A DNA stretch of 64,000 bases from Bacteroidota bacterium. GTDB taxonomy: Bacteria; Bacteroidota; Bacteroidia; NS11-12g; UBA955. Numbering within the stretch: position 1 is the stretch's first letter; each line of letters begins with the position of its first letter. Of the stretch, positions 10,505 through 41,580 are shown piece by piece. A program made the translations under genes and the position numbers. The stretch is from NCBI GenBank assembly GCA_027488835.1, contig JAIYAW010000005.1:40307-104306 (forward strand). Reading direction: 5' to 3'. Below the pieces are notes generated by a model that saw only the letters and a program-made list of their open reading frames with translations, was not told the DNA's origin and ran no database searches.

Positions 10505-11194
10505 TTAAGCAGTTTTTTGAATGGCCTCTAAAAGGGCCATTTTTTTTGCACGCGATATTTTAATTCTAGTATCATTATTCATAATAACCTCATCAGTACT
10601 GAAAGATTTAACATGGTCAAGGTTTACCGCGTAAGATCGGTGAACCCTTACAAATGTCTCAGGGAAATTATGAATAATGGATTTGATAGTTTTAGAAATT
10701 GTATAGAATTTATTATTGGTATACAAATTTGAATAAGAACCATAGGCTTCAATAAAAACAATATTGTTATATTGTAATTTAGTAATTGACTTATGATCTT
10801 TTATAACAATGTGATTCTTTACGTTTGATTTTTCATCACTTTTTATTTGTTTTTGTATGCGCTCTGAAAAGAAATTAAAATCACATTCAAGGCTGTCTAG
10901 CAACAAGTAATCATAAAAACCTTGTCTTATAGATTCAATTGCGTAGTCGGCGTTTTCTGAAACCATAATCAGATGAATGTTTTTTCTGGTTATTTCTTTC
11001 AAGCGAATTTCAGTTTCAAGAATATTGAAATTCTCTTTATCAACAAAGAGGTATATTTTGTCTGATGACGTGAAATTCTTTTCTCCATTGACTTTATCAA
11101 GGGATTTAATTCTTGCATTTGAAAATTTAGCACAAATTAAGTCGCTAATTTTTTTAGTATTAAATTGGTTATTGAATTGAATTAAAAATATCAT
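10505..11194 (-). CDS. LytTR-family DNA-binding regulator with a degenerate N-terminal receiver-like domain
   Basis: C-terminal LytTR signature (NIVFIEAYGSYSNLYT...FVRVHRSYAVNLDHV). The N-terminal approx 120 aa resemble a REC fold (IYLFVDKE, HLIMVSENAD, GFYDYLLL) but lack the N-terminal acidic pair. Confidence 0.8.
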   Translation of the reverse strand: MIFLIQFNNQFNTKKISDLICAKFSNARIKSLDKVNGEKNFTSSDKIYLFVDKENFNILETEIRLKEITRKNIHLIMVSENADYAIESIRQGFYDYLLLDSLECDFNFFSERIQKQIKSDEKSNVKNHIVIKDHKSITKLQYNNIVFIEAYGSYSNLYTNNKFYTISKTIKSIIHNFPETFVRVHRSYAVNLDHVKSFSTDEVIMNNDTRIKISRAKKMALLEAIQKTA

Positions 11195-11644
11195 CTCCGT
11201 TTTAAATTATTATTTACGTACAATCAAAAAAGCATCGTACTTTTTTGTATGATGTAGAATATCATCTACAAAAATAACCTAATTTTGAATGTAATATTTT
11301 ATAATATTGTAAGATAATTGTTAATTAATGTATTTTTTTCAAGAAATTATATTTCAATAACTTATGCGATTTTTTTTGAGAAATATTGGATTTTGGTACA
11401 AAAAAAATTATAAAATCAAACAATATATAGAAATCGAGGTTCATTTTACATTGTATAAAATTTGTTTCTAATGACTTTCCAAGATATCAATTTAGAATCT
11501 TTTTCTGATTTATTTCGATTACCAAGTACTTTCGAATAATGTGGTACTCCAGATGAAATATTGGTGGAGTACCACTCGGATAGCCAAGAAGTTGCTGATT
11601 TCGCAATCTTTGCTTTTGTTAGAAATGTATAACCTATTACAAAA

Positions 11645-12334
11645 CTAAGCCGTTTTTTGAATGGCCTCTAAAAGAGCCGTTTTCTTTGCGCGCGATATTT
11701 TTATTTTAGTATCATTATTCATAATGACTTCATCCGTGCTGAAAGATTTAACATAGTCAAGATTTACTGCGTAAGAGCGGTGAACCCGAACAAATGTCTC
11801 TGGGAAATTATGAATAATTGATTTGATAGTTTTAGAAATTGTATAGAATTTTTGGTCGGTATATAAGTTTGAATATGAACCATAAGCCTCTATGAAAACA
11901 ATATCGTTAAATTGTAATTTGGTAATTGACTTATGATCTTTAATAATGATGTGATTTTTTACGGTTGATTTTTCATCACTTGTTATTTGTTTTTGTATGC
12001 GATCTGAAAAGAATTTAAAATCATATTCAAGACTGCCTAATAACAGGTAATCATAGAAACCATGTCTTAAGGATTCAATTGCATGATCTGCGTTTTCCGA
12101 AACCATAATTAGATAAATGTTTTTTCTGTTAATACCTTTTAAGTATGTTTCTGGTGAAAGAATATCGAAATTTTTCGTATCAACAAACAGGTAAATTCTA
12201 TCTGTTGATGAAGAATCTTTACCCGCATTGAATTTATCAATAGATTTAATTCTTGCATTTGAAAATTTCGCACAAATTAAGTCGCTAATTTTTTTAGTGT
12301 AAAATAGATTGTCGAATTGAATTAAAAATATCAT
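11645..12334 (-). CDS. LytTR-family regulator, tandem paralogue of 10505-11194
   Basis: About 80% amino-acid identity to the neighbouring LytTR gene. The identical start context gaattgaattaaaaatatcat is shared by both copies. The track ORF is extended to a TTG at 12364; the ATG at 12334 (MIFLIQFD...) corresponds to the start of copy 1. Confidence 0.8.
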   Translation of the reverse strand: MIFLIQFDNLFYTKKISDLICAKFSNARIKSIDKFNAGKDSSSTDRIYLFVDTKNFDILSPETYLKGINRKNIYLIMVSENADHAIESLRHGFYDYLLLGSLEYDFKFFSDRIQKQITSDEKSTVKNHIIIKDHKSITKLQFNDIVFIEAYGSYSNLYTDQKFYTISKTIKSIIHNFPETFVRVHRSYAVNLDYVKSFSTDEVIMNNDTKIKISRAKKTALLEAIQKTA

Positions 12335-12576
12335 TTTCCTTGGTTTTGAATTATTGTTGTTCAAGTCAGCATAGTTAAAATAATTACGGACAAGAATATT
12401 TTCTACAAAAATAATTCACAAGTACAAGTCAAATTTCTTGAAGTTGTTGCATAATTAAATTCGGTACATATTAGATAGAGGCTCGGTAATAAATAATTGA
12501 TAAGTATATTTTTAACATTTTTATTGTTCAGGTATTTCGGATTTTGGAACAAAAAAATGACTAAAACTGAACTGTA

Positions 12577-13788
12577 TTAATTCAGTTTTAAGTTCTGAAA
12601 GTATACATTCGGACTGATTCCCGTTATTTTCTTGAAACTAACGTAATATGTGGTCCGTGAATTGAATCCTGAAAAATTACCAATTGCCTCCATCGTGTAT
12701 TTTTTGTTGCTGTTATCTTTTAACAATTTTATGGAATGATCGATTCGCATTTCACAAATGATATCGGGAAAGGATTTTTTGATGTGGTTATTAAGAATAA
12801 ATGAAATATGATGACTAGGAATTGAAAAATGGTTTGCAGCCATGGCAATTGAAAATTCAGGATTTAAATACAATTGTTTTTCATTTATTTCTGAAATGAT
12901 AGTTTGTGCCAAAATAAACTCTTTGTTATCAACTTCATCGGTATCATTTTTAAATGATTTAAAATTAGGTAGTGATTTTTCATTATCAGCTATGGTTTTA
13001 TAATTGATTTTTGGTAAACCATACAGAAGTAAAGGATTCAATAATATGTATGTTGCTAGTATTATAATAGACAAACCGGTTACAAATAATGGGATTTTTA
13101 AAAATAAATTCGAATGAACAGTAATGGTAGAAATAAAAATTGAATTATAAATTGATGAATATGCAACTGAAACAACAAAAACCGAAATTACAATTAAAAA
13201 TAACTTTAACCATTTTAAAACAAATTGTGATTTAATTTCACTATTGAGTTGTATGCTTCTGATATAGTTTCGCCACGCAAACAATGTATATGATACATAT
13301 AATAGAACCCGCAAAACAAAATTGTATTTTGCTTTCATTAATGTACCTGGATAATTGGCTATTTTTGTATAATCTGTGGATATTGTACTTGCCCAATATT
13401 GCCAGTGTTGAGGTCCTCCCGAATAATAATCCAAATTATCAATAATTGCATAAACAGCCGGAATTAAATGGAGCAAATCGATTTTCGAGAAGTTATAATT
13501 TTCATCTAAATTTATGACTACATAAAAATAGATTGCAGGTTGAACGATATAATAGAAAGGGGCAAAACCCCTTAACAAAAATGGTACGTTACCAATCAAT
13601 CCACTGATTACAAAAACATGTACCAAATGATAATTGATTATGCCCCAAAACATTGCAAACATTAACCATTTGAGTTTTGGATTTCCATTTTTTTCAATTA
13701 AAATTGTTCCACACGCAATAAAGGTTATTAATACAGCAGTAATCAGCATTACTATCACTGAAGTATCCTTAGGAATAACGAAAATCAT
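12577..13788 (-). CDS. Polytopic membrane protein with C-terminal AraC-type HTH DNA-binding domain
   Basis: N-terminal approx 260 aa with about 6-7 hydrophobic helices. The C-terminal approx 100 aa carries a typical AraC/XylS HTH (EKQLYLNPEFSIAMAANHFSIPSHHISFILNNH...GFNSRTTYYVSFKKITG). Confidence 0.8.
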   Translation of the reverse strand: MIFVIPKDTSVIVMLITAVLITFIACGTILIEKNGNPKLKWLMFAMFWGIINYHLVHVFVISGLIGNVPFLLRGFAPFYYIVQPAIYFYVVINLDENYNFSKIDLLHLIPAVYAIIDNLDYYSGGPQHWQYWASTISTDYTKIANYPGTLMKAKYNFVLRVLLYVSYTLFAWRNYIRSIQLNSEIKSQFVLKWLKLFLIVISVFVVSVAYSSIYNSIFISTITVHSNLFLKIPLFVTGLSIIILATYILLNPLLLYGLPKINYKTIADNEKSLPNFKSFKNDTDEVDNKEFILAQTIISEINEKQLYLNPEFSIAMAANHFSIPSHHISFILNNHIKKSFPDIICEMRIDHSIKLLKDNSNKKYTMEAIGNFSGFNSRTTYYVSFKKITGISPNVYFQNLKLN

Positions 13789-13944
13789 CTCAAATATATA
13801 AATTTATAGGGAGTTAAAAATAAGCAAGTATTTTGGTAGTTTGATTTGGTAAATTTTTTTCGAAAATAATGCATTTGCCTTAATTTGCGATTATTCAAAG
13901 ATCACTTTTTTTCAATAAATAAGTAGATAATTTGGAATACGAAT

Positions 13945-14095
13945 TTATTTGGATTTTGTGTTTTGTAGGCATTCACTTTGTGCAATACCCGTTATTATCT
14001 TGAAGCACACATAAAAAAGTTCTTTGATGAGTATTAATTTACCTGGTTATTTGATGATAAAAGCAAATACCCAATATTCATTGTGCCAAAATTGT
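13945..14095 (-). pseudogene. Chimeric remnant of a third membrane-AraC paralogue (3' end fused to a mid-gene segment; approx 650 bp internal deletion)
   Basis: 13945-14035 aligns base-by-base with the 3' end of gene 15155-16366 (15158-15250). 14029-14095 aligns with 15908-15975 of the same gene. The intervening portion is missing and no intact reading frame remains. Confidence 0.45.
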
Positions 14096-14470
14096 AAATG
14101 ACACAGTGAATATGGGCAATGTCTGTGCTGTAATGTAACTAGGTAAAATAACGAGAATTATTTTAAAGAAACATTGATGTGAAATTAAGTCCAGGTTTTA
14201 TTATGTGGCTCCTATCTAAATAATTTCTTTTAACTGTTTAAACTTCATACTAAAGTGAAAAATTCCATATTTTTATCATAACGAAGAAATGGTTTCTGTT
14301 CTAAAAAGCAATTTAAGGAATGTACGGATTTGCAACAAAAATGTCCTAAAATCATAAAAAATAGTTTGTATCGTATTGTTTTTTAATCTTTTAAATTATT
14401 TGTTGTTGCATTTTGATAAATCACACAATTTTCAAAATATGCAGAATCGATTAGAATTTAACTTTGTGAA

Positions 14471-15115
14471 ATGAAAAATTTGGGTGAGATAATTGATGTA
14501 GATATTTTTCTATTGGATGAAGTTTCTTTGTATGAAAATAATTTATGGCAAGAAAATTATAAATTACACCTTGCATTAAACAAGTTTAAATCGTTTAAAA
14601 TTGGAATACCCTTCGATTGCAAAAATAAATTGTTAGGACCAGTGATTCAGTTTATTGATTCAATCAATTTGAATGGTAGTTATTTTGTATATTTCAATAT
14701 TAACAATGAGGAAAATTTATTAGCATTAGTAAATAATTATCACTCAGAATTGACAAATCATATTTTTTACATTTTGCCTGATAAAAAAGTGAAATACTCA
14801 AAACTATCAAAAAATTTTTGGGACATACAATTGTTGGGATTTGAAATTCATATACTAAAATGTGACAAGATAGAAGAATGCAGGTTATCGCCTTCAATTA
14901 TGAATAAATATTGGCGGAAAGGAGCGATAGTTGGTATTGTAGGATTTACAAAGAATCCTATTCGGTTATTTAGAAAAAGAAAATTACAACAGTTGATAAG
15001 ACAAAAAATATTTGATTATTGGATAACTGAAATCATAGATCAAAAAGACGTGACTTATTTAAATGAAATCAAACTAAAAGCAGAATTGCTTAATTTTCGT
15101 GTTTTAAATAAGTAA
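14471..15115 (+). CDS. Hypothetical protein (no recognisable domain)
   Basis: 214-aa ORF, the only plus-strand ORF in the island. It is Lys/Asn-rich and is preceded by approx 680 bp of noncoding AT-rich DNA. Coding status is uncertain. Confidence 0.4.
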   Translation: MKNLGEIIDVDIFLLDEVSLYENNLWQENYKLHLALNKFKSFKIGIPFDCKNKLLGPVIQFIDSINLNGSYFVYFNINNEENLLALVNNYHSELTNHIFYILPDKKVKYSKLSKNFWDIQLLGFEIHILKCDKIEECRLSPSIMNKYWRKGAIVGIVGFTKNPIRLFRKRKLQQLIRQKIFDYWITEIIDQKDVTYLNEIKLKAELLNFRVLNK

Positions 15116-15154
15116 ATTAAATATTAAAATGATCAATACGGCTGATTATTCTTT

Positions 15155-16366
15155 CTATGGATTTTTTATGTTTTGAATGTATTCACTTGGTGTAATACCC
15201 ATTATTTTCTTGAAGCTCACATAAAAAGTAGTTCGTGAATTGAATCCAGAAATATTACCAATTGCCTCCATAGTGTATTTTTTATTTCGATTGTCTTTTA
15301 ATAGTTGAATGGCATGATCAATTCGCATTTCAGAAACGATATCGGGAAATGATTTTTTAATGTGATTGTTAAGAATAAATGAAATATGATGATTTGGTAT
15401 TGAAAAATGTTTCGCAGCCGTATTCAATGAAAAATCCGGATTTAAATACAATTGTTTTTCGTTGATCTCGGAAATAATACTATTGGCCAAAATATTTTCT
15501 TTATTATCACTGTTAGTCATATCATTTTTGAATGATATAAATTTTGATAACGCATTTGAATTGTCAATTATCGTTTTGTAATTGATTCTAGGTAAACCGT
15601 AGAGTAAAATCGGATTAAATAAAATATATCCCGACAGTGCCAAAATAGATAAGCCAATTAAGCTAATTGTAATCAAAACGGAGACATTGGAATTGTCCAT
15701 TATTGTATCAAGATAGTTAAAATTACTTACAGAACTTAAACTAACCGTTACAACAAAAACCGACATGATAATCAAAAATAATCTTAACCATTTTAGAACG
15801 AATTGATCTTTAATTTCTTGATTGTTTTTGACATAATGAAAATAGTATCGCCAAGCGAATAAAGTGTATGAAATCTTTAACAAATCAAGGAAAATAAAAT
15901 GATATTTGGATAGTATTAATTTGCCTGGATATTTGGTCAAGAAAGAAAAATCATTAGATATTGTATTTGCCCAAAATTCCCAATGGTTAGGGCCTCCGCA
16001 ATAAAATCCCCAATTATCTATAACCGACAAGACGAAGGGAATTAAATGCAGTAAATCTTTTTTTGTAAAATTATAGTTTTCATTCAGGGTTACTATAACA
16101 TAAAAATAAATTGCAGGCTGAATTATATAATAATAAGGATACAATCCCCTAATGAAAAATGGGAAATCTTTAATTAACCCCAAGGATATAAAAAGAATTA
16201 CGGAAAAATGAAGACCAATCTCTGTAAATATGATAAAAAGCAGCCACTTCAGTTGTGGATTACAATTTTTTTCAATTAAAATTGCTCCACACGCCAAAAA
16301 TGTAACTAGCACTGCTAAAATAAGCAGTGACTGCACGAAATAGCTTGGTGAAATAAAGAAAATCAT
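15155..16366 (-). CDS. Polytopic membrane protein with C-terminal AraC-type HTH domain (paralogue of 12577-13788)
   Basis: Same length (403 aa) and architecture as 12577-13788. Alignable throughout, including EINEKQLYLNPDFS and FPDI..EMRIDH in the HTH region. Confidence 0.8.
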   Translation of the reverse strand: MIFFISPSYFVQSLLILAVLVTFLACGAILIEKNCNPQLKWLLFIIFTEIGLHFSVILFISLGLIKDFPFFIRGLYPYYYIIQPAIYFYVIVTLNENYNFTKKDLLHLIPFVLSVIDNWGFYCGGPNHWEFWANTISNDFSFLTKYPGKLILSKYHFIFLDLLKISYTLFAWRYYFHYVKNNQEIKDQFVLKWLRLFLIIMSVFVVTVSLSSVSNFNYLDTIMDNSNVSVLITISLIGLSILALSGYILFNPILLYGLPRINYKTIIDNSNALSKFISFKNDMTNSDNKENILANSIISEINEKQLYLNPDFSLNTAAKHFSIPNHHISFILNNHIKKSFPDIVSEMRIDHAIQLLKDNRNKKYTMEAIGNISGFNSRTTFYVSFKKIMGITPSEYIQNIKNP

Positions 16367-34254: not shown

Positions 34255-34905
34255 GTGAGCCTCAATAAAATTGAACCTTTTGTAATTGGGATTACCGGTC
34301 TATCAGGTTCCGGCAAATCTTTCTATGTCAATTTATTGAAAGAAAAACTTGGCAATCATGTTTGTGTAGTTGGTTTTGACGATTATTATAAGTCATTAGA
34401 TCAGCAAATTACGGATGAAAATGGCGAAACAAATTATGATTTGCCTTCGGCCTTATATCAAGATAAGTTTCATGAAGACCTGCTTAAACTAATTGATTAT
34501 CAAACTGTAGAAATTAAAAAATACCAGTTTGAAAATTACGATGCTCCTGAGGTCACTGAAATTATAAAGCCTGCACCTATTTTGGTGGTTGAAGGATTGT
34601 TTGTGTTGGATTGTCAACCCGTAAATAATTTGTTGAACTTTAGAATATTTATGGATTGTAATTTGGAGCTTTGTTTCAGTCGCAGATTATTGAGAGATGT
34701 TACTCAAAGAAATATTCCTGAAATCAAAAGCAGATATCAATGGACAAACCATGTGTTGCCCGCATTTGAAAAATTCATCGTTCCTTACAAAGAAAGCTGT
34801 AATTTAGTAATTGAAAATAATGGAATACCAGATGAAAACATTGAAGCAATTATTGCAAAAATCAAACTGTTGGCACATCCTTCTGTGACGAATAGATTGC
34901 CTTAA
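34255..34905 (+). CDS. udk: Uridine kinase family protein
   Basis: P-loop IGITGLSGSGKSF at the N-terminus; DDYYK, VVEG and RRLLRD segments typical of uridine/cytidine kinase. The start is a GTG overlapping the previous stop. Confidence 0.75.
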   Translation: MSLNKIEPFVIGITGLSGSGKSFYVNLLKEKLGNHVCVVGFDDYYKSLDQQITDENGETNYDLPSALYQDKFHEDLLKLIDYQTVEIKKYQFENYDAPEVTEIIKPAPILVVEGLFVLDCQPVNNLLNFRIFMDCNLELCFSRRLLRDVTQRNIPEIKSRYQWTNHVLPAFEKFIVPYKESCNLVIENNGIPDENIEAIIAKIKLLAHPSVTNRLP

Positions 34906-35405
34906 ATAAATATTTGTTCGCTCCCTCTATCTTGGGTATTGTATATAGCAAAACTCGCTTCTCCAAATAATCCTGCAATTTCTCCTGGATTCATATACAA
35001 AGCACTTCCAAATTTTTGTTTGTGATATTTGTGTGTATGTCCAAAGAAAACGCAATCAAACCAACCAGTTTTTATCATAGTATGGGCATAAAACGGGTAG
35101 TGCGTTACCCCAATTTTAATTCCATCGAACACCAATTGTGTATCTAAATCGCCAATGAATTCTCCGTAAATTTTTATTTGAGGGAAATTCGCCGCCACTT
35201 GAGAAATATTAAATCTGTCGCCATCGTTGTTACCAAAAACAGCATATACATTTAAACCACTCTTCCCTAATTCATTTACTACAAATGGAGAACAAAAGTC
35301 CCCACAAATGATTAAGTCATTAATATTTCGTTCTTTTAACGTTGTTATCGCCTTTTTTAAGTTGGTTATATTGTCGTGTATGTCGCTGATTATTCCGAAT
35401 TCCAT
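34902..35405 (-). CDS. YfcE/MJ0936-type metallophosphoesterase
   Basis: MEFGIISDIHDN, ICGDF, GNNDGD and GHTH metal-ligand motifs. The track ORF begins at 35471, but the family N-terminus begins at the internal MEFGII... (complement of 35405). Confidence 0.8.
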   Translation of the reverse strand: MEFGIISDIHDNITNLKKAITTLKERNINDLIICGDFCSPFVVNELGKSGLNVYAVFGNNDGDRFNISQVAANFPQIKIYGEFIGDLDTQLVFDGIKIGVTHYPFYAHTMIKTGWFDCVFFGHTHKYHKQKFGSALYMNPGEIAGLFGEASFAIYNTQDRGSEQIFI

Positions 35406-35471
35406 AGAAAGATTTGTAAAATTTTGCTCGAAAATACAAAATGGTTGTAATTTTGCAGTAAATATTTTCAA

Positions 35472-35819
35472 ATGGCAATAATAATCACTGAAGAATGTAT
35501 CAATTGTGGAGCATGTGAACCAGAATGTCCGAATAATGCAATTTATGAGGCTGGAGTAGATTGGACGCTCGCCGATGGAACGGGAGTAACGGGTATGTTT
35601 ACCATGGCAAATGGTTCAGAAGTATCGGTTGACCATAAATTTTCTGCCATTAGCAATGAAGTTTATTTTATTGTTCCTGATAAATGTACCGAATGTACTG
35701 GCTTTCATGAAGAGCCACAATGTGCAGCTGTTTGTCCTGTAGATTGTTGTGTGCCTGATCCTGATCATGTTGAGAGCAAAGAAGTATTGCTCGACAGAAA
35801 GACCCGTCTACATTTGTAG
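35472..35819 (+). CDS. 4Fe-4S dicluster ferredoxin
   Basis: Two cluster motifs CINCGACEPECP and CTECTGF...CAAVCPVDC; 115 aa. Confidence 0.85.
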   Translation: MAIIITEECINCGACEPECPNNAIYEAGVDWTLADGTGVTGMFTMANGSEVSVDHKFSAISNEVYFIVPDKCTECTGFHEEPQCAAVCPVDCCVPDPDHVESKEVLLDRKTRLHL

Positions 35820-35878: not shown

Positions 35879-36619
35879 ATGTTCGATGTACAATATATTT
35901 GCTTGCAATCTTGGGTTCCAATTAGAGCCTCTAATAGCAGTGCCTCGGAAATGGTAACATCTTTACTTTTTGGTGAAACTTGCATTGCCGTTGGAGAATT
36001 AGACGATTGGCTTCAAGTTCGAACCAATCACGATGGTTATGCCGGTTTTGTTCCTAAAAATTATGTTTATTTGCTTGAAACGTATGCACATATTCAGTGG
36101 AAAATAGTGGCAGAGCCTTTTACTTACATGATACATAACCAAATGGTTATTCAACTTTCTCCAGGCTCCCGTATCCCTCAAAATAATCATATTTTGATTG
36201 AAGGAAATGAATATGTTTGGAAAAATGGGTTGGGTGTTAAAACCATTGTAAATATGTTGGAACATGCCCAATGGTTTTTGAATACCCCTTATTTGTGGGG
36301 CGGAAGAAGTATTTTTGGCATTGATTGCAGCGGATTAGTTCAAGTATTGGCACAAATGTCAAATCTTAAAATGCCGAGAGATGCATATCAACAAGCGCTA
36401 TGTGGTACAAGGAAAACTTGGAGTAACCGACAGGCCGGTGATTTGTGTTATTTCGAAAATAAAAGTGGCAAAATAACCCATGTTGGAATTTTAATTTCAA
36501 CGGAAAGAATTATTCACGCCTCGGGAAAAGTGAGAATTGATTTCATTACTCCAGAAGGAATTGTGAATAGTCAATCAAATGAACTTACACATAAATTAGC
36601 TGATATTAGAACTTGGTAA
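35879..36619 (+). CDS. C40 (NlpC/P60) family peptidase with N-terminal SH3-like domain
   Basis: Catalytic Cys in GGRSIFGIDCSGLVQ, His in ITHVGIL, plus a downstream His; N-terminal SH3b-like segment. Confidence 0.85.
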   Translation: MFDVQYICLQSWVPIRASNSSASEMVTSLLFGETCIAVGELDDWLQVRTNHDGYAGFVPKNYVYLLETYAHIQWKIVAEPFTYMIHNQMVIQLSPGSRIPQNNHILIEGNEYVWKNGLGVKTIVNMLEHAQWFLNTPYLWGGRSIFGIDCSGLVQVLAQMSNLKMPRDAYQQALCGTRKTWSNRQAGDLCYFENKSGKITHVGILISTERIIHASGKVRIDFITPEGIVNSQSNELTHKLADIRTW

Positions 36620-36623
36620 AATT

Positions 36624-37070
36624 ATGAAACTCGCAGAATATATTGATGAATTTAAAGGGTCTTATCACCCACTTGAAGGAGTGAAATTTGGATTTGAAGC
36701 CTCCCAATCAGAGGCTCATGTTGATTTGACCGTAAACGCCGCAATGACATACATGCAAGGATTGATGATGTCTGGGAAAATTTCGGAAATTCAGAAGTTA
36801 GCAACGGGTGGATCAGAAGCTTTAAAGGACAGTCAATATTTTCAAGATTTACTTCAACAATGTGCAAATAGCTATTACGGGTTGGATTGGGATATTGAAA
36901 GGAAAAAGGTTTTGGCAGGAAGTATTTTGGCTTTCGTGTTGGAGGGATTGAGGGTGAAATTTCAATCTGGAGGATACGAATCGAATGCACAAGGCGTCAT
37001 GAAATTTCTTGGAATTGATTTGGGTATCATGGGCAAAATGGGTGGCATGTTTGGTAAATTTTTTAAGTAA
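36624..37070 (+). CDS. Hypothetical 148-aa protein with glycine-rich amphipathic C-terminal tail
   Basis: ORF 4 bp after the C40 gene and ending 3 bp before the next ORF. C-terminus LGIDLGIMGKMGGMFGKFFK. No known domain recognised. Confidence 0.4.
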   Translation: MKLAEYIDEFKGSYHPLEGVKFGFEASQSEAHVDLTVNAAMTYMQGLMMSGKISEIQKLATGGSEALKDSQYFQDLLQQCANSYYGLDWDIERKKVLAGSILAFVLEGLRVKFQSGGYESNAQGVMKFLGIDLGIMGKMGGMFGKFFK

Positions 37071-37073
37071 TTA

Positions 37074-39566
37074 ATGAAAAAGGAAAAGCACATCATTCAA
37101 TCACTGTTGTTTTGGGTGTTTTTTCTAGTTTGTACATCGGTTGATGCGCAATACAGCGATTTTGTGAGGCCCGAAAAGGCAGTAAAAGGTTTTGATTATC
37201 ACATTCTTATCACGAGCAACAGTGATTTTAAATATTTAAAAGCGCATATTCCGCATTTTTTAAACATAGAAAAACTCAGAATTGATGGTCCGGTTGATGT
37301 GAATCTTCTGTCGGAGATTGCAGGGAAATTCGACAATTTGGAAGAATTGCAACTGCGACAGTTTCAAGGTATTATTTCGGATGTGGATCTAGAAAACATT
37401 GAATGGATTCCACTTGTGTATTTATATGTCCCTCAAAATAGAGAAGATGCATTGCTGTTAAACAATTATTGGAGTCGGTTTAACCGAATTTCGTTAGAAT
37501 TTGAAGTTGTTCCGGATCAATATGATTTCATGAAAACTTGGAAATCATGCAAAGAACTTCAAATTATTGCACCATGGACGAGATCGGAATTGGATACAGC
37601 CTTGCGTGAAATATCTAAATTGGTTCCCAAACTTCAAAAATTGTCGATTTCTGTAAATAATGTTGAATACCTAACCCAATCGATTCATCGATTTAATAAG
37701 TTAACGAGACTTACCTTAATAGATGCTGCTAGTTTGTCAACCGGAGTTCCAATTGAACTTTTAAATGAAATATTAACACCCGTGAAAATCGGCAACAAAG
37801 ATGTGAATTTGGTGTCGGGCGTGAATAAAACAGTTATCAACAAGGCCATTCATATGCCTTTGGTTTTTTTAACAAACAATACCGAGTTGTTAACTTCAGA
37901 ATTGAAACATATCAAAAAGATTTTCCCAGATGGGGAAGTGGTTCAAGATTTTGAATGGATTGAACCAGAACAAAAGTTAGATTTCGTAGAAAATTTGGGA
38001 TTTTCACCAATTAAAAACAGGGGTAACTTTCCCAATCCTATTTCCAAGCCATTGATAGAAGATTTCCAAGAAGGGACATTTTATTTTGAGGGAAACAACA
38101 AAAGCAACCAAATTTTCGAAGGTGAGAGAAAATGGGCCATATTGGTACCGAAAGGTGGCATTGTAAATGCATCCGGCGAGGAATACCTGAATAACTATAC
38201 CATTAAAGTGAAAGTGATGACGAATCAAGAACGACTTCTGGCTTATGCACCGAATTTGGTTTATGATTCGGCACAGCAGCTGTTTCAGCTAAATCCATCG
38301 TTTTTGTTCGACATACAGGCATTTGATGGGAAAGAACTTTTAAATATTAAACCGGGTTGTTTTGTGGAGGTACATTTTGTAGGGACATTGAATCAAAATG
38401 CACATTTCTATGCTTTGAAAAACCAGAAATGGGTACATTTCTACGAGTATGATTATTCATTTTCAGACGATCATTTGGCCAAAATTGATTTCTTTCAATT
38501 TTATCAAGCTTCCCAAAATGCCAAATTTACCGGTGGTTCAGATATAAGCAGCTTGGATGAAAAACTTGAAAATAAAGGGTACTACTATTTGCTTAAAGAG
38601 AATGAAACAAAAAGTTGGGTCATACCATTCAAAAATCAATACGTACAAAAAATATCAAAGATTGCCGACGAAAAAAGCTTTTTATTAAAAAGAGGCTCTT
38701 CCTTAATTGGTGTGAGAAACTTTGTTTCAGAAAGGCCTACAGAAAAAGGCCTTTATGAGCTGAGAATCTACGATAAAACCAAAAAGTTATTTCCAGAATT
38801 GAAATCATTTGAGAATTACCCTTTGGTTTTTAAAACCAATATGGCTAAGAAAGATGTTACCCTTCAGTTTTTTAAAGCCATGAAGTTTTTTGATGTACGC
38901 ATTAGAGAATTTGGAGTAGGTTATGCGTTGGAATTAAAATCAAACGAAGGATTGTGGCAAATTCAATTGTTAGAGCCCAAAGAGCGGTATAAAACCTCGC
39001 CTAGATTTGCAAAAAGCGAACAGAAGAAATTTTCAAGTAAAATACAAATGTATTTGTCTCTTAGGGGTGGTAAAATAAATGCGTTGGAAAGTACGCAAAA
39101 ATCAATTGCGTTGAATGAACTACAAGATTCCAAATCTGTCATTTTTGGGAGTAATAATATTCCAAAAGCCAAAATGAAACGCAGTTTTCTAATTCGCAGT
39201 TTTGGGCGATTTGCTTTTGCATCAGCCGATTCAATAGCCTCAGCCAAATTTGTTGAATTGATACCTTGCGAACCAGGTAAAATTCCTTTAAAAGTGAATC
39301 AATTTGTTGTGATTTATGATAACCCAATGTCGACCATTTGTTTGGGTAAATCGGATCGCTATAGCATCGACATTGCAGAAAGTAATCTTTTATACATTGC
39401 ATGTAAAGATGAGTTTGATCGTGTTTTTGTTCTAACCGGCGATAAATTCAGAAAACTAAATATTCAAAACAATACTTTGACTTATATAGATATGGTTCAA
39501 CTTCCTGAACAATTCTTGAGCCAAGAAATCATCCTTAACCTATTTAAAATCAAACGCAAAAATTAA
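37074..39566 (+). CDS. Secreted 830-aa hypothetical protein with N-terminal leucine-rich-repeat-like region
   Basis: Signal peptide (…LVCTSVDA-QY). Repeated LxxLxL segments (LEELQL, LQKLSI, LTRLTL) in the first approx 230 aa; the remainder is unassigned. Its stop overlaps the start of the symporter gene. Confidence 0.5.
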   Translation: MKKEKHIIQSLLFWVFFLVCTSVDAQYSDFVRPEKAVKGFDYHILITSNSDFKYLKAHIPHFLNIEKLRIDGPVDVNLLSEIAGKFDNLEELQLRQFQGIISDVDLENIEWIPLVYLYVPQNREDALLLNNYWSRFNRISLEFEVVPDQYDFMKTWKSCKELQIIAPWTRSELDTALREISKLVPKLQKLSISVNNVEYLTQSIHRFNKLTRLTLIDAASLSTGVPIELLNEILTPVKIGNKDVNLVSGVNKTVINKAIHMPLVFLTNNTELLTSELKHIKKIFPDGEVVQDFEWIEPEQKLDFVENLGFSPIKNRGNFPNPISKPLIEDFQEGTFYFEGNNKSNQIFEGERKWAILVPKGGIVNASGEEYLNNYTIKVKVMTNQERLLAYAPNLVYDSAQQLFQLNPSFLFDIQAFDGKELLNIKPGCFVEVHFVGTLNQNAHFYALKNQKWVHFYEYDYSFSDDHLAKIDFFQFYQASQNAKFTGGSDISSLDEKLENKGYYYLLKENETKSWVIPFKNQYVQKISKIADEKSFLLKRGSSLIGVRNFVSERPTEKGLYELRIYDKTKKLFPELKSFENYPLVFKTNMAKKDVTLQFFKAMKFFDVRIREFGVGYALELKSNEGLWQIQLLEPKERYKTSPRFAKSEQKKFSSKIQMYLSLRGGKINALESTQKSIALNELQDSKSVIFGSNNIPKAKMKRSFLIRSFGRFAFASADSIASAKFVELIPCEPGKIPLKVNQFVVIYDNPMSTICLGKSDRYSIDIAESNLLYIACKDEFDRVFVLTGDKFRKLNIQNNTLTYIDMVQLPEQFLSQEIILNLFKIKRKN

Positions 39567-41059
39567 TGTCTCCGCTACTTATATTTATAGGACTCGCTAG
39601 TTACTTTTTAATTCTCCTTTCAATTGGCTATTTCACGAGTAAATCAGGCGGTGAGGATGGATATTTCTTAGGTAATAAACAAAGTATTTGGTGGCTTGTA
39701 GCAATTGGAATGCTTTCAGACTCTATGAGTGGGGTTAGCTTTATTTCTGTACCCGGGAATGTTTTTGCTGCTAAGTTTTACTATTTGCAAGTGGTTCTTG
39801 GTTATGTCATTGGTTATTTGGTTATTGCCTATATTTTATTGCCTTTATACTACAAACACAATGTAACAAGTATTTATAGTTATTTAAATACCCGATTTGG
39901 AACCATTCATCAAAAAACGGGTGCCTTATTTTTTGTATTGTCGCGATTAACGGGTAGTGCAGGTCGGTTGTTTTTAACTGCAGCAATTTTGCAAAAGTTT
40001 TTATTCTCACAATGGGATATTCCATTTGTGATTACAGTTGCCTTTATCATTGGGCTAATTTTGGCATACACCATTAAAGGAGGAATTAGAACATTGGTTT
40101 TTACCGATGCTTTGCAGAGTGTATTTTTGGTTGGAGGACTTTTGGTGTGTATTGCAATTATGATTTCCAAAACACCTTCGGTGGTAAATCAAGGTGCATT
40201 TAATGTTGTAGCTGATTCGGAATTGTCACAAATATTTAATTTTAATTTTTGGCAAAAAACCTTCGTCTTAAAACAAATTATTGGAGGGATGTTTTTATGC
40301 ATTGCCATGACAGGACTCGATCAAAATATGATGCAGAAAAACCTTAGCTGTAAGTCCTTGGGCGAAGCCCAAAAGAACATGCTAACAACTGCTGGTGTTG
40401 TGTTTTTTGTGAATTTATTATTCCTTTCATTGGGAATTTTCATGATAGAATATTTGAAATCAGTGGATCCAGTTTTGTTAGATCCTAACCACTACGCCGA
40501 TAAAAAAGTACTCACAGATATGTTTTTTCCTCATATTGCCTTGGATTTACTTGGACCAATTGCGGGAATGGCATTTGTACTGGGGTTATCAGCCGCAACT
40601 TTTTCAAGTGCAGATAGTGTTTTAACAACCTTAACAACAAGCACATATATTGATGTTTTGGGAATAGATAGTAGAGAAGATTTAACTATAGAACAAAAGC
40701 ACAAGAGAAGGGTACTCTTGCACATTGCATTCTCGGTGTTGCTATTAATGGCAATATTGGTTTTTTACGCATTTGTAAAAACCACGGTAATCAATTTGGT
40801 ATTAGACATTGCAAATTATACCTATGGTCCATTGTTGGGTTTGTTTACATTGGGTATATTTACCAAAGCCAAACCCAAAGGGTGGGGCGTTTTGATTATT
40901 AGTTTATTGGCTCCTTTGCTGTGCTACTTTTTGGTAAATTACATAGCAAAAGATGCCAAATACCAAATAGGATATGAATTGTTGCTCATTAATGGTTCGA
41001 TTTCGTTTATTGGTTATTACCTATTGCATTACTTTCAAAACAAACGCGAATTGCAGTAA
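39566..41059 (+). CDS. Sodium:solute symporter (SSS) family transporter
   Basis: Approx 13 predicted TM helices with SSS-family segments; 497 aa. ATGA-type overlap with the upstream gene. Confidence 0.85.
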   Translation: MSPLLIFIGLASYFLILLSIGYFTSKSGGEDGYFLGNKQSIWWLVAIGMLSDSMSGVSFISVPGNVFAAKFYYLQVVLGYVIGYLVIAYILLPLYYKHNVTSIYSYLNTRFGTIHQKTGALFFVLSRLTGSAGRLFLTAAILQKFLFSQWDIPFVITVAFIIGLILAYTIKGGIRTLVFTDALQSVFLVGGLLVCIAIMISKTPSVVNQGAFNVVADSELSQIFNFNFWQKTFVLKQIIGGMFLCIAMTGLDQNMMQKNLSCKSLGEAQKNMLTTAGVVFFVNLLFLSLGIFMIEYLKSVDPVLLDPNHYADKKVLTDMFFPHIALDLLGPIAGMAFVLGLSAATFSSADSVLTTLTTSTYIDVLGIDSREDLTIEQKHKRRVLLHIAFSVLLLMAILVFYAFVKTTVINLVLDIANYTYGPLLGLFTLGIFTKAKPKGWGVLIISLLAPLLCYFLVNYIAKDAKYQIGYELLLINGSISFIGYYLLHYFQNKRELQ

Positions 41060-41091: not shown

Positions 41092-41222
41092 TTAGAAGCA
41101 TTGCTTGCGTTTGGATGAACTCTCATTTAGTTTTTAAAAGCACTGCATGCGTTTAGAAGAGCTTCACTCGTTTAGTGTTTAGAAGCATGCGTGTGTTGAG
41201 AAGAGCTTCACTCGTCTAGTTT
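41092..41222. repeat. Imperfect tandem repeat, approx 44 bp x 3
   Basis: Units tttagaagcattgcttgcgtttggatgaactctcatttagtt / tttaaaagcactgcatgcgtttagaagagcttcactcgtttagtg / tttagaagcatgcgtgtgttgagaagagcttcactcgtctagtt. The 16-mer gaagagcttcactcgt is exact in units 2 and 3. Confidence 0.8.
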
Positions 41223-41240
41223 AAAGGTTAATTAGAGCAA

Positions 41241-41580
41241 AACAACCTTTATAATCACTCATCAACCTTCATAAACCCTTATAATTACTCATAAACGTTT
41301 ATAAACCTTAGAATTCCCCTAGCAAACCAACCTTCATAAACCCTTATAATCACTCATAAACGTTTATAAACCCTAAAATTCTCCTAGCAAACCAACCTTC
41401 ATAAACCCTTATAATCGCTCTTAAACGTTTATAAACCCTAAAATTCTCCTAACAAACCAACCTTCATAAACCCTTATAATTACTCATAAACGTTTATAAA
41501 CCCTAAAATTCTCCTAGCAAACCAACCTTCATAAACCCTTATAATCACTCATAAACGTTTATAAACCTTAGAATTACCGA
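41241..41580. repeat. Tandem direct repeat, 65-bp unit in about 5.2 copies, in a convergent intergenic region
   Basis: The motif caaccttcataaacccttataat(c/t)actcataaacgtttataaaccctaaaattctcctagcaaac recurs at 41263, 41328, 41393, 41458 and 41523, an exact 65-bp period. Copies differ by only 1-4 substitutions, and a truncated copy lies at each end. Confidence 0.9.

What the first reader, a model, noticed from the sequence alone, without database searches (positions are those of the whole stretch)
35879..41059. Tightly packed putative operon: C40 peptidase, 148-aa Gly-tail protein, 830-aa secreted LRR-like protein, Na+/solute symporter
Four plus-strand genes are separated by 4 bp, 3 bp and a 1-bp overlap, strongly suggesting co-transcription. 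Two of them have no recognisable domain. One is a small protein ending in an amphipathic glycine-rich tail (LGIDLGIMGKMGGMFGKFFK). The other is an 830-aa secreted protein with LRR-like repeats. They are coupled to a cell-wall peptide hydrolase and an SSS transporter. This may be an uncharacterised pathway in which a secreted binding or processing protein and a peptidase generate a small solute that the symporter imports.
Basis: partly seen in the sequence, partly recalled or inferred. Interest (0 to 1): 0.5.

Follow-up and report, generated by a model that had tools for sequence, protein, structure and literature searches.

The report
Compact operon hiding a transporter–LRR-protein pair
Four tightly packed genes are real and probably co-transcribed, but comparison with relatives shows only one lasting link, between an uncharacterised exported leucine-rich-repeat protein and a sodium/solute transporter; the cell-wall peptidase and the small protein are neighbours of convenience.

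Summary
The four plus-strand ORFs exist exactly as described, with gaps of 4, 3 and -1 bp. The genes are a YkfC-type NlpC/P60 peptidase, a 148-aa helical protein, an 830-aa signal-peptide protein with an N-terminal LRR domain, and an SSS transporter. Tight spacing is normal in this window: it is 91% coding, and 15 of 37 same-strand junctions are 5 bp or less.

The order recurs in about 30 related freshwater Bacteroidota contigs, but only inside a longer collinear block that also holds housekeeping genes (ferredoxin, arginine decarboxylase, malate dehydrogenase).

Deeper relatives break the block up:
- One has a DUF853/HerA-like ATPase between the peptidase and the 148-aa gene.
- One has an RND efflux operon between the 148-aa and 830-aa genes.
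- One keeps only the 830-aa homologue overlapping the SSS gene, beside ribosomal protein genes.

The 830-aa→SSS pair survives in all 37 contigs where both ends are visible. The 148-aa family instead recurs next to DUF853 ATPases. The peptidase has no signal peptide, so it cannot act outside the cell with the exported protein.

The proposed four-gene pathway is not supported. A two-gene periplasmic-LRR-protein/SSS module is supported, but its function is unknown.

The parts
35423..35455 (+). Bacteroidetes-type promoter-like motif (TTTG, spacer, TAnnTTTG) 17 nt upstream of the ferredoxin start; candidate start of the transcription unit
   Evidence: The motif occurs at chance frequency across the window (11 found, 9.6 expected), so this is weak evidence.
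35472..35819 (+). YfhL-type 2x[4Fe-4S] ferredoxin (115 aa); probably the first gene of the same unit
   Evidence: NCBIfam NF033683 scores 99 bits against a cut-off of 86. It sits directly upstream of the peptidase in every Type A and Type B locus. The gap is only 1-3 bp in several relatives and 59 bp here.
35879..36619 (+). Cytoplasmic SH3b + NlpC/P60 cysteine peptidase, YkfC / dipeptidyl-peptidase VI type
   Evidence: Pfam NLPC_P60 and SH3_16 both score above their cut-offs. The closest solved structures are Bacteroides YkfC 3pvq/3npf and B. cereus YkfC 3h41. The Cys (GIDCSGLV), His (ITHVGI) and His (IIHASG) align with theirs. The ORF has no signal peptide and cannot be extended upstream.
36624..37070 (+). 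sm148: 148-aa helical-bundle protein with a Gly/Met-rich C-terminal tail; new, very small family
37074..39566 (+). big830: exported 830-aa protein; new family
   Evidence: Homologues down to 25-29% identity align over the full length. AF2 model: pLDDT 67, pTM 0.36.
37074..37148 (+). Signal peptide of big830 (aa 1-25, cleavage VDA|Q)
   Evidence: Hydropathy profile. A small residue followed by Gln is conserved across homologues. This fits the Q-rule (PMC5837995).
37191..37763 (+). LRR-like alpha/beta repeat domain of big830 (aa ~40-230); the most conserved part of the protein
38442..38468 (+). Motif Y-E-Y-D-Y-x-F-x-D (aa 457-465) of big830; Y459, D460, Y461, F463 and D465 are invariant in all compared homologues; role unknown
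   Evidence: Invariant columns. It lies in a low-confidence loop of the model.
39566..41059 (+). SSS (SLC5-type) sodium/solute symporter, 497 aa; member of an orthologous group found widely in Bacteroidota; substrate unknown
   Evidence: Pfam SSF. It falls below every NCBIfam equivalog cut-off. The closest solved relatives are SiaT, NIS, SMVT and SMCT1. Orthologues.

Best explanation
The region is a composite transcription unit in a very compact genome, not a four-step pathway. It probably runs ferredoxin - NlpC/P60 - sm148 - big830 - SSS. It contains three modules.

1. Ferredoxin and peptidase. These are a YfhL-type ferredoxin and a cytoplasmic YkfC-type gamma-D-Glu-L-diamino-acid peptidase. 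By family knowledge, the peptidase trims cell-wall stem peptides inside the cell.

2. sm148. This is a soluble helical protein with a flexible Gly/Met-rich tail. In deeper-branching relatives its gene lies next to a DUF853/HerA-like P-loop ATPase gene. The window's lineage no longer has that gene at this position.

3. big830 and the SSS transporter. This is the only link that has survived every rearrangement seen. The proposed mechanism is inferred, not shown:
- big830 is exported by Sec and cleaved before Gln26.
- It stays in the periplasm or cell envelope.
- It uses its conserved N-terminal LRR domain to bind a ligand or the transporter itself, so that it acts as an extracytoplasmic partner of the SSS.
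- It could capture or process the substrate, or stabilise or regulate the carrier.
- The overlapping stop and start codons keep the two proteins produced together.
For: Shown: gene positions and junctions.
- ORFs and junctions are as described.
- The genome is compact.

Shown: four genomic contexts.
- Type A: YfcE(-)-Fdx-NlpC-sm148-big830-SSS-speA(-)-mdh. It occurs in about 30 contigs, with big830 identity falling to 27%.
- Type B (L044): Fdx-NlpC-HerA/DUF853-sm154-big824-SSS. Gaps of 7 and 6 bp flank big824, and the downstream genes are unrelated.
- Type C (L042/L043/L040): HerA-sm151, then a three-gene RND operon on the opposite strand, then big861-SSS. No NlpC, speA or mdh is in view.
- Type E (L047/L048): rpsF-rpsR-rplI on the opposite strand, then big803 (28% identity, E = 2e-109) overlapping the SSS gene by 4 bp. 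No NlpC, sm148, Fdx or HerA lies within 10 kb.

Shown: the big830-SSS pair.
- In all 37 contigs where the DNA downstream of big830 is visible, the next gene is the SSS gene.
- SSS orthologues linked to big830 form one clade. The three sampled orthologues outside that clade lack big830.

Shown: sm148 and DUF853.
- Homologues of sm148 lie beside a DUF853 gene in L044, L042/L043, L010 and L009. The last two are the distant homologues, at 38% and 24% identity to the L042 copy.

Shown: individual proteins.
- big830 has LRR evidence and a signal peptide.
- The peptidase lacks a signal peptide.
Against: - No physical or functional link between big830 and the SSS was tested. Adjacency could be inherited rather than selected.
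- SSS orthologues with and without big830 show no distinguishing insertion or loop, so no docking feature is visible.
- The big830 model is of modest quality (pLDDT 67, pTM 0.36). Apart from the LRR domain, its domains have no informative structural match.
- The sampled contigs are not independent, because many are close relatives or near-duplicates.
- The promoter and terminator scans are at chance level.
Confidence: 0.5

Rival explanations
1. Pure inherited synteny. None of the four genes is functionally linked to another. They are neighbours by descent in slowly rearranging, streamlined genomes, and they are co-transcribed only because intergenic space has been squeezed out.
For: - 91% of the window is coding, and 41% of same-strand junctions are 5 bp or less.
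- The conserved block includes clearly unrelated housekeeping genes: udk, ferredoxin, speA and mdh.
- The Fdx-NlpC adjacency persists about as deeply as the sm148-big830 adjacency.
Against: The big830-SSS adjacency persists after both flanks have been completely replaced (Types C and E). The overlapping or near-abutting junction is re-created or kept each time. Every other adjacency in the block has been broken at least once over the same divergence.
Confidence: 0.27
2. Cell-wall recycling module. The SSS imports a small peptidoglycan-derived compound. big830 binds cell-wall fragments in the periplasm. The cytoplasmic YkfC-type peptidase processes imported stem peptides.
For: - The peptidase is closest to the YkfC/DPP VI recycling enzymes (PMC4600125).
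- The nearest solved relative of the SSS is the sugar-acid transporter SiaT.
- NlpC lies near the pair in Types A and B.
Against: - In Type B an ATPase gene and sm154 lie between the peptidase and the pair.
- Type E has no peptidase within 10 kb, and none is seen in the sampled part of Type C.
- To my knowledge no SSS is known to carry peptides.
- Arg135, which binds the sialic-acid carboxylate in SiaT, is not conserved in the alignment.
- No other recycling genes (ampG, murQ, murK, epimerase) lie nearby.
- The papers I could read did not place the Tannerella MurNAc transporter MurT in the SSS family.
Confidence: 0.08
3. The exported protein and the peptidase together generate a small solute outside the cytoplasm, and the symporter imports it. 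The 148-aa protein is a fourth component.
For: Tight packing of the four genes. The order is conserved in close relatives.
Against: - The peptidase has no signal peptide in any lineage examined, so it is on the wrong side of the membrane.
- The four-gene order is broken in Types B, C and E.
- sm148 is a cytoplasmic protein whose other recurring partner is DUF853.
Confidence: 0.04
4. sm148 and big830 are ancestrally clients or partners of the DUF853/HerA-like ATPase, for example in an ATP-driven envelope assembly or export function. The SSS gene is merely the downstream neighbour.
For: In Type B the order is HerA-sm154-big824-SSS. In Type C it is HerA-sm151, then an insertion, then big861. HerA/FtsK-type ATPases are translocation motors (family knowledge; weak matches).
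Against: - The window and about 30 relatives keep sm148-big830-SSS without any DUF853 gene nearby.
- Type E keeps big803-SSS without either HerA or sm148.
- big830 has an ordinary Sec signal peptide.
Confidence: 0.05

Closest known systems
[quoted passage not shown]
   Same: Gene 1 has the SH3_16 + NLPC_P60 architecture. The Cys-His-His triad aligns, and these are the best-scoring solved relatives.
   Different: It is shorter (246 aa against about 310-330) and has only one detected SH3b domain. It has no signal peptide, whereas the pathway proposed for the Bacteroides enzymes is periplasmic (PMC4600125). The residues that determine specificity were not checked.
SSS / SLC5 transporters SiaT (5nv9), NIS, SMVT, SMCT1
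   Same: Gene 4 matches the SSF domain over its full length. Its best solved relatives belong to the anion and sugar-acid branch of the family.
   Different: Identity is only about 20%. It scores below all NCBIfam equivalog cut-offs, including PutP, so the database label 'Na+/proline symporter' is unsupported. SiaT Arg135 is not conserved. The substrate is unknown.
Bacterial LRR proteins (Leptospira LIC11098/LIC12759, Bacteroides fragilis 2ra8, internalins)
   Same: The N-terminal ~200 residues of big830 form alpha/beta LRR-like repeats.
Binding-protein-dependent secondary transporters (TRAP DctPQM, TTT TctABC) and accessory subunits of SLC5 carriers or channels (MAP17 for SGLT2; LRRC26-type LRR subunits of BK channels). 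Analogy from my own knowledge.
   Same: A secondary transporter gene is persistently paired with a gene for an extracytoplasmic protein.
   Different: big830 has no similarity to DctP or TctC binding proteins. It is 830 aa and LRR-based. No interaction has been shown, and SSS orthologues function without it in other Bacteroidota.
DUF853 / HerA_C (YjgR-like) P-loop ATPases
   Same: These ATPase genes are the recurring neighbour of sm148-family genes in four independent contexts.
   Different: No such gene is present in this 64-kb window. sm148 shows no sequence relation to the ATPase C-terminus (hhalign probability 0.1%).

Membership tests
NlpC/P60, YkfC/DPP VI type | NLPC_P60 domain above the Pfam gathering score | tested here: met
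   74.4 bits against a cut-off of 23
NlpC/P60, YkfC/DPP VI type | N-terminal SH3b domain of the dipeptidyl-peptidase type (SH3_16) | tested here: met
   35.2 bits against a cut-off of 25.8, residues 15-60
NlpC/P60, YkfC/DPP VI type | Catalytic Cys-His-His triad | tested here: met
   GIDCSGLV, ITHVGI and IIHASG align with GVDCSGLV, ISHVGI and FIHALG of BtYkfC 3pvq
NlpC/P60, YkfC/DPP VI type | [quoted passage not shown] | not tested
   The SH3b region aligns too poorly to map these residues (domain 1 not significant). An enzyme assay is needed.
Sodium:solute symporter family (SSS, TC 2.A.21) | Full-length match to the SSF domain above the gathering score | tested here: met
   90.3 bits against a cut-off of 22.8, residues 33-434
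PutP Na+/proline symporter (label given by some databases) | Score above the TIGR02121 equivalog cut-off | tested here: not met
   30.4 bits against a cut-off of 515.5. The source label is seen.
SiaT-type sialic acid transporter | Conserved carboxylate-binding Arg135 and the Thr58/Ser60/Thr63 hydroxyls (residue roles recalled from my own knowledge) | tested here: inconclusive
   The hydroxyl positions are Ser in the query, but Arg135 aligns to Gly. At about 20% identity the alignment is uncertain.
Leucine-rich repeat proteins | Repeated LRR units detectable by sequence models | tested here: inconclusive
   Pfam LRR_4 scores 14.6 bits against a cut-off of 27. The family profile does hit LRR proteins in the PDB at E = 1.5e-6.
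Leucine-rich repeat proteins | Curved alpha/beta solenoid fold | tested here: met
Sec/SPI-exported Bacteroidota protein (Q-rule) | n-h-c signal peptide followed by Gln at +1 | tested here: met
   MKKEKH / IIQSLLFWVFFLVCTSV / DA|Q. Gln is conserved after a small residue in homologues. Rule: PMC5837995. No dedicated signal-peptide predictor was available.
T9SS cargo | C-terminal Por_Secre_tail domain | tested here: not met
   No Pfam hit in big830
ZU5/GAIN-type autoproteolytic domains | Beta-sandwich fold with a conserved H-F/L-S/T cleavage motif | tested here: not met
TRAP/TTT-type binding-protein-dependent secondary transport | Extracytoplasmic partner of the DctP or TctC fold | tested here: not met
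   No such domain is found in big830
Operon (single transcription unit) | Same strand, with junctions too short for a promoter or terminator | tested here: met
   Gaps of 4, 3 and -1 bp. No -7 motif lies within 150 nt upstream of genes 2-4.
Operon (single transcription unit) | A transcript spanning the junctions | not testable with these tools
   Needs RT-PCR or (meta)transcriptome reads
Functionally coupled gene cluster (all four genes) | Gene order kept in distant relatives whose flanks have been rearranged | tested here: not met
   Types B, C and E break NlpC-sm148 and sm148-big830. Only big830-SSS is kept.

The most novel reading that the evidence does not exclude
big830 is a dedicated periplasmic subunit of an SSS transporter. 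It would be a large LRR-based substrate-capturing, substrate-generating or regulatory partner, acquired once in a clade of Bacteroidota. To my knowledge this would be the first SLC5/SSS carrier with a large extracytoplasmic LRR partner. Separately, sm148 would define a new accessory family for the uncharacterised DUF853/YjgR ATPases.
Probability: 0.15. Interest if true: 0.6.

Novelty: new variant of a known kind. Interest (0 to 1): 0.35.

Why it matters
If the big830-SSS pairing is functional, it would extend the idea of accessory extracytoplasmic partners to the SSS/SLC5 family. Such partners are known for TRAP and TTT transporters and for some eukaryotic carriers and channels. It would also give a handle on the unknown substrate of an SSS orthologous group that is widespread in Bacteroidota.

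The recurring sm148-DUF853 association is one of the few contextual clues for the function of the YjgR/DUF853 ATPases.

The case is also a caution about method. In streamlined genomes, abutting genes and synteny among close relatives do not by themselves indicate a shared pathway.

Tried and rejected
- Pfam at relaxed thresholds for the sm148 and big830 families. It returned only noise and sub-threshold LRR hits.
- Defence and phage libraries. There were no hits for sm148 or big830.
- Test of whether sm148 derives from the Gly-rich C-terminus of DUF853. hhalign probability was 0.1%, so this was rejected.
- Lead that the SSS might be related to the Tannerella MurNAc transporter MurT. Three papers describe MurT only as a novel inner-membrane transporter family. 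None links it to the SSS family, and I had no sequence to compare. The lead was dropped.
- Search for a clade-specific insertion in SSS orthologues that are linked to big830. None was seen.
- Sigma-70 promoter and intrinsic terminator scans. Promoter-like sites numbered 15 against 28 expected from shuffles, and terminator-like sites 9 against 5.2, so neither scan was informative.
- Rfam scan of the window. No RNA family matched.
- ZU5/GAIN-like autoproteolysis idea for the conserved YDYxFxD motif. It was rejected because the position after Phe is not a conserved nucleophile.
Full report
**1. Observation**

The junctions read TAA-aatt-ATG, TAA-tta-ATG and TAATG, so the gaps are 4, 3 and -1 bp.

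All four are real genes with conserved homologues. Public sources label the homologues of the first three 'hypothetical protein', and some label the fourth 'Na+/proline symporter'.

Tight spacing is not special in this window:
- A simple gene map gives 91% coding density.
- 15 of 37 same-strand junctions are 5 bp or less.
- Even the convergent udk/YfcE pair overlaps by 4 bp.

**2. The individual genes**

*Gene 1, the peptidase.*
- It carries SH3_16 and NLPC_P60 domains, both above Pfam cut-offs.
- Its best solved relatives are the YkfC/dipeptidyl-peptidase VI enzymes of Bacteroides (3pvq, 3npf) and Bacillus cereus (3h41). The Cys-His-His triad aligns with theirs.
- These enzymes cleave gamma-D-Glu-diamino acid bonds only in stem peptides that have a free N-terminal L-Ala. 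They are regarded as cell-wall recycling enzymes (PMC4600125).
- The ORF cannot be extended upstream. Neither it nor its 42%-identical homologue in L044 has a signal peptide. The enzyme is therefore predicted to be cytoplasmic.

*Gene 2, sm148.*
- It matches nothing in Pfam, NCBIfam, PADLOC or PHROGs.
- An exhaustive profile search of 1.8 billion representative proteins finds only nine members.
- It has no transmembrane segment. The Gly/Met-rich tail is only weakly amphipathic.

*Gene 3, big830.*
- It has a classical signal peptide ending VDA|Q. A Gln follows a small residue at this site across its homologues, as expected from the Bacteroidetes Q-rule (PMC5837995).
- This N-terminal domain is the most conserved part of the protein.
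- The remaining ~600 residues comprise beta-sandwich domains, a 50-residue helix and a YEYDYxFxD motif in which Y459, D460, Y461, F463 and D465 are invariant. They have no informative match beyond moderate ZU5/GAIN-like similarity.
- It has no T9SS C-terminal domain and no lipobox.

*Gene 4, the SSS transporter.*
- It is a full-length SSS transporter but scores below every NCBIfam equivalog cut-off, including PutP.
- Its closest solved relatives are SiaT, NIS, SMVT and SMCT1.
- The SiaT carboxylate-binding arginine is not conserved in the alignment.
- The substrate is unknown.

**3. Comparative genomics: the decisive evidence**

I collected 48 loci, using scans of species-representative genomes and of metagenomes plus look-ups of SSS orthologues. 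The named source records are freshwater Flavobacteriales-like MAGs. Some other record names are evidently placeholders.

*Type A.* This is the window-like arrangement, seen in about 30 contigs, with big830 identity falling to 27%. It keeps not just the four genes but the whole block: YfcE(-)-ferredoxin-NlpC-sm148-big830-SSS-speA(-)-mdh. Usually MORN and udk lie upstream as well. That block contains clearly unrelated housekeeping genes. Its conservation therefore says little about function. In several of these contigs the ferredoxin-NlpC gap is only 1-3 bp, so the spacing argument would make ferredoxin part of the 'operon' too.

*Type B (L044).* The SSS is 57% identical and big824 is 25% identical (E = 4e-100). 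The order is YfcE(-)-Fdx-NlpC-[DUF853/HerA-like ATPase]-sm154-big824-SSS. Gaps of 7 and 6 bp flank big824, and the downstream genes are unrelated.

*Type C (L042/L043/L040).* The SSS is 55% identical. The order is DUF853-sm151 (3-bp gap), then a three-gene RND efflux operon on the opposite strand, then big861 (29% identity, E = 2e-116) and the SSS. The downstream genes are different again, and no NlpC is in view.

*Type E (L047/L048).* The SSS is 57% identical. Ribosomal protein genes rpsF-rpsR-rplI lie on the opposite strand. Then comes big803 (28% identity, E = 2e-109), which overlaps the SSS gene by 4 bp. No NlpC, sm148, ferredoxin or DUF853 lies within 10 kb.

*No big830.* SSS orthologues at 51-54% identity (L015, L045, L046) have no big830 homologue nearby.

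A neighbour-joining tree places all big830-linked SSS proteins in one clade, separate from the unlinked ones. This suggests that big830 was acquired once next to the SSS gene. It has stayed there while everything else around the pair changed. In all 37 contigs where the DNA downstream of big830 is visible, the next gene is the SSS gene.

**4. sm148 and the DUF853 ATPase**

sm148 is next to a DUF853 gene in Types B and C. Its most distant homologues are too. In L010 the order is DUF853 then sm152, with a 12-bp gap. In L009 the order is sm154 then DUF853. A fifth context, L011, shows dnaE(-)/sm152/uvrA.

The window contains no DUF853 gene. The NlpC-sm148 junction here therefore looks like a derived state. 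It probably arose when the ATPase gene was lost from between them.

**5. Interpretation**

The four genes are very probably co-transcribed, possibly starting at the ferredoxin gene.
- A Bacteroidetes-type -33/-7 motif ends 17 nt before the ferredoxin start.
- A second -7 motif ends 63 nt before the NlpC start.
- None lies within 150 nt upstream of sm148, big830 or SSS.
- These motif counts are near chance, so this evidence is weak.

The four genes do not form a conserved functional set. It also fails on conservation, because the peptidase and sm148 part company with the other two genes in deeper relatives.

What survives is a two-gene module: an exported LRR protein of a new family, followed by an SSS transporter. 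My preferred reading has confidence about 0.5. In it, big830 is a periplasmic or envelope partner of the transporter, acting in substrate capture or processing, or as a stabilising or regulatory subunit. The overlapping or near-abutting junctions would keep the two co-expressed.

This reading is inferred from persistent adjacency only. No interaction was tested. SSS orthologues with and without big830 show no distinguishing loop. The main rival, at about 0.27, is that even this pair is simply inherited synteny.

**6. Comparison with what is known, and novelty**

- The peptidase is an ordinary, though short and signal-less, member of the YkfC type.
- The SSS is an ordinary member of its superfamily with unknown substrate.
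- big830 and sm148 are uncharacterised families of narrow distribution.
- To my knowledge, a persistent pairing of an SSS carrier with a large LRR-based exported protein is not described. The nearest analogies are binding-protein-dependent TRAP and TTT systems and accessory subunits of eukaryotic carriers and channels. big830 shares no fold with the bacterial binding proteins.

I rate the finding as a new variant of a known kind, with moderate interest (0.35). The conserved pair is clean and testable, and there is a useful contextual clue for DUF853 ATPases. However, no function has been demonstrated, and most of the original hypothesis is not upheld.

Noticed in passing
L044:4356-6512; L042:1-1802; L010:1-1581; L009:201-1211 (no counterpart in the window): Genes of the sm148 family lie directly beside a DUF853/HerA_C (YjgR-like) P-loop ATPase gene in four separate contexts. 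The window's lineage lacks that ATPase gene at this position. This may be a contextual clue to the function of DUF853 ATPases.
   Followed up: partly
window 41122-41575: The spacer between the convergent SSS and speA genes holds two tandem arrays: a 65-bp unit x 4.8 copies (94% matches, 41263-41575) and a 44-bp unit x 2.2 copies (41122-41220). The 65-bp array is not found in the related loci. In L001 the same spacer instead carries a 3.6-kb insertion with a 690-aa ORF and two smaller ORFs, none of them annotated here. This spacer is therefore a variable hot spot.
   Followed up: partly
window 10505-16366: A low-GC stretch (27-31% against about 36% elsewhere) holds two paralogous 229-aa LytTR-domain regulators and two paralogous 403-aa AraC-type regulators. 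It has unusually long intergenic gaps of 240-680 bp. It may be a genomic island or a regulatory gene expansion.
   Followed up: partly
window 34902-35471 (- strand): The mechanical ORF for the YfcE-type phosphoesterase starts at a TTG and abuts the ferredoxin start. Homologues are called at 167-168 aa, which fits the ATG at 35405. That would leave a 66-bp divergent spacer containing the promoter-like motif at 35423-35455.
   Followed up: partly
window 1-64000: No Rfam family reaches its gathering score anywhere in the 64-kb window, so no tRNA, rRNA or riboswitch is detected.
   Followed up: yes
L003, L004-L008 record titles: Several MAG records that carry this locus are titled 'Chitinophaga pinensis' or 'uncultured Rhizobium sp.', yet they share the same syntenic block as records titled 'Flavobacteriales bacterium'. 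These names look like placeholder or erroneous taxonomy in the source records.
   Followed up: no
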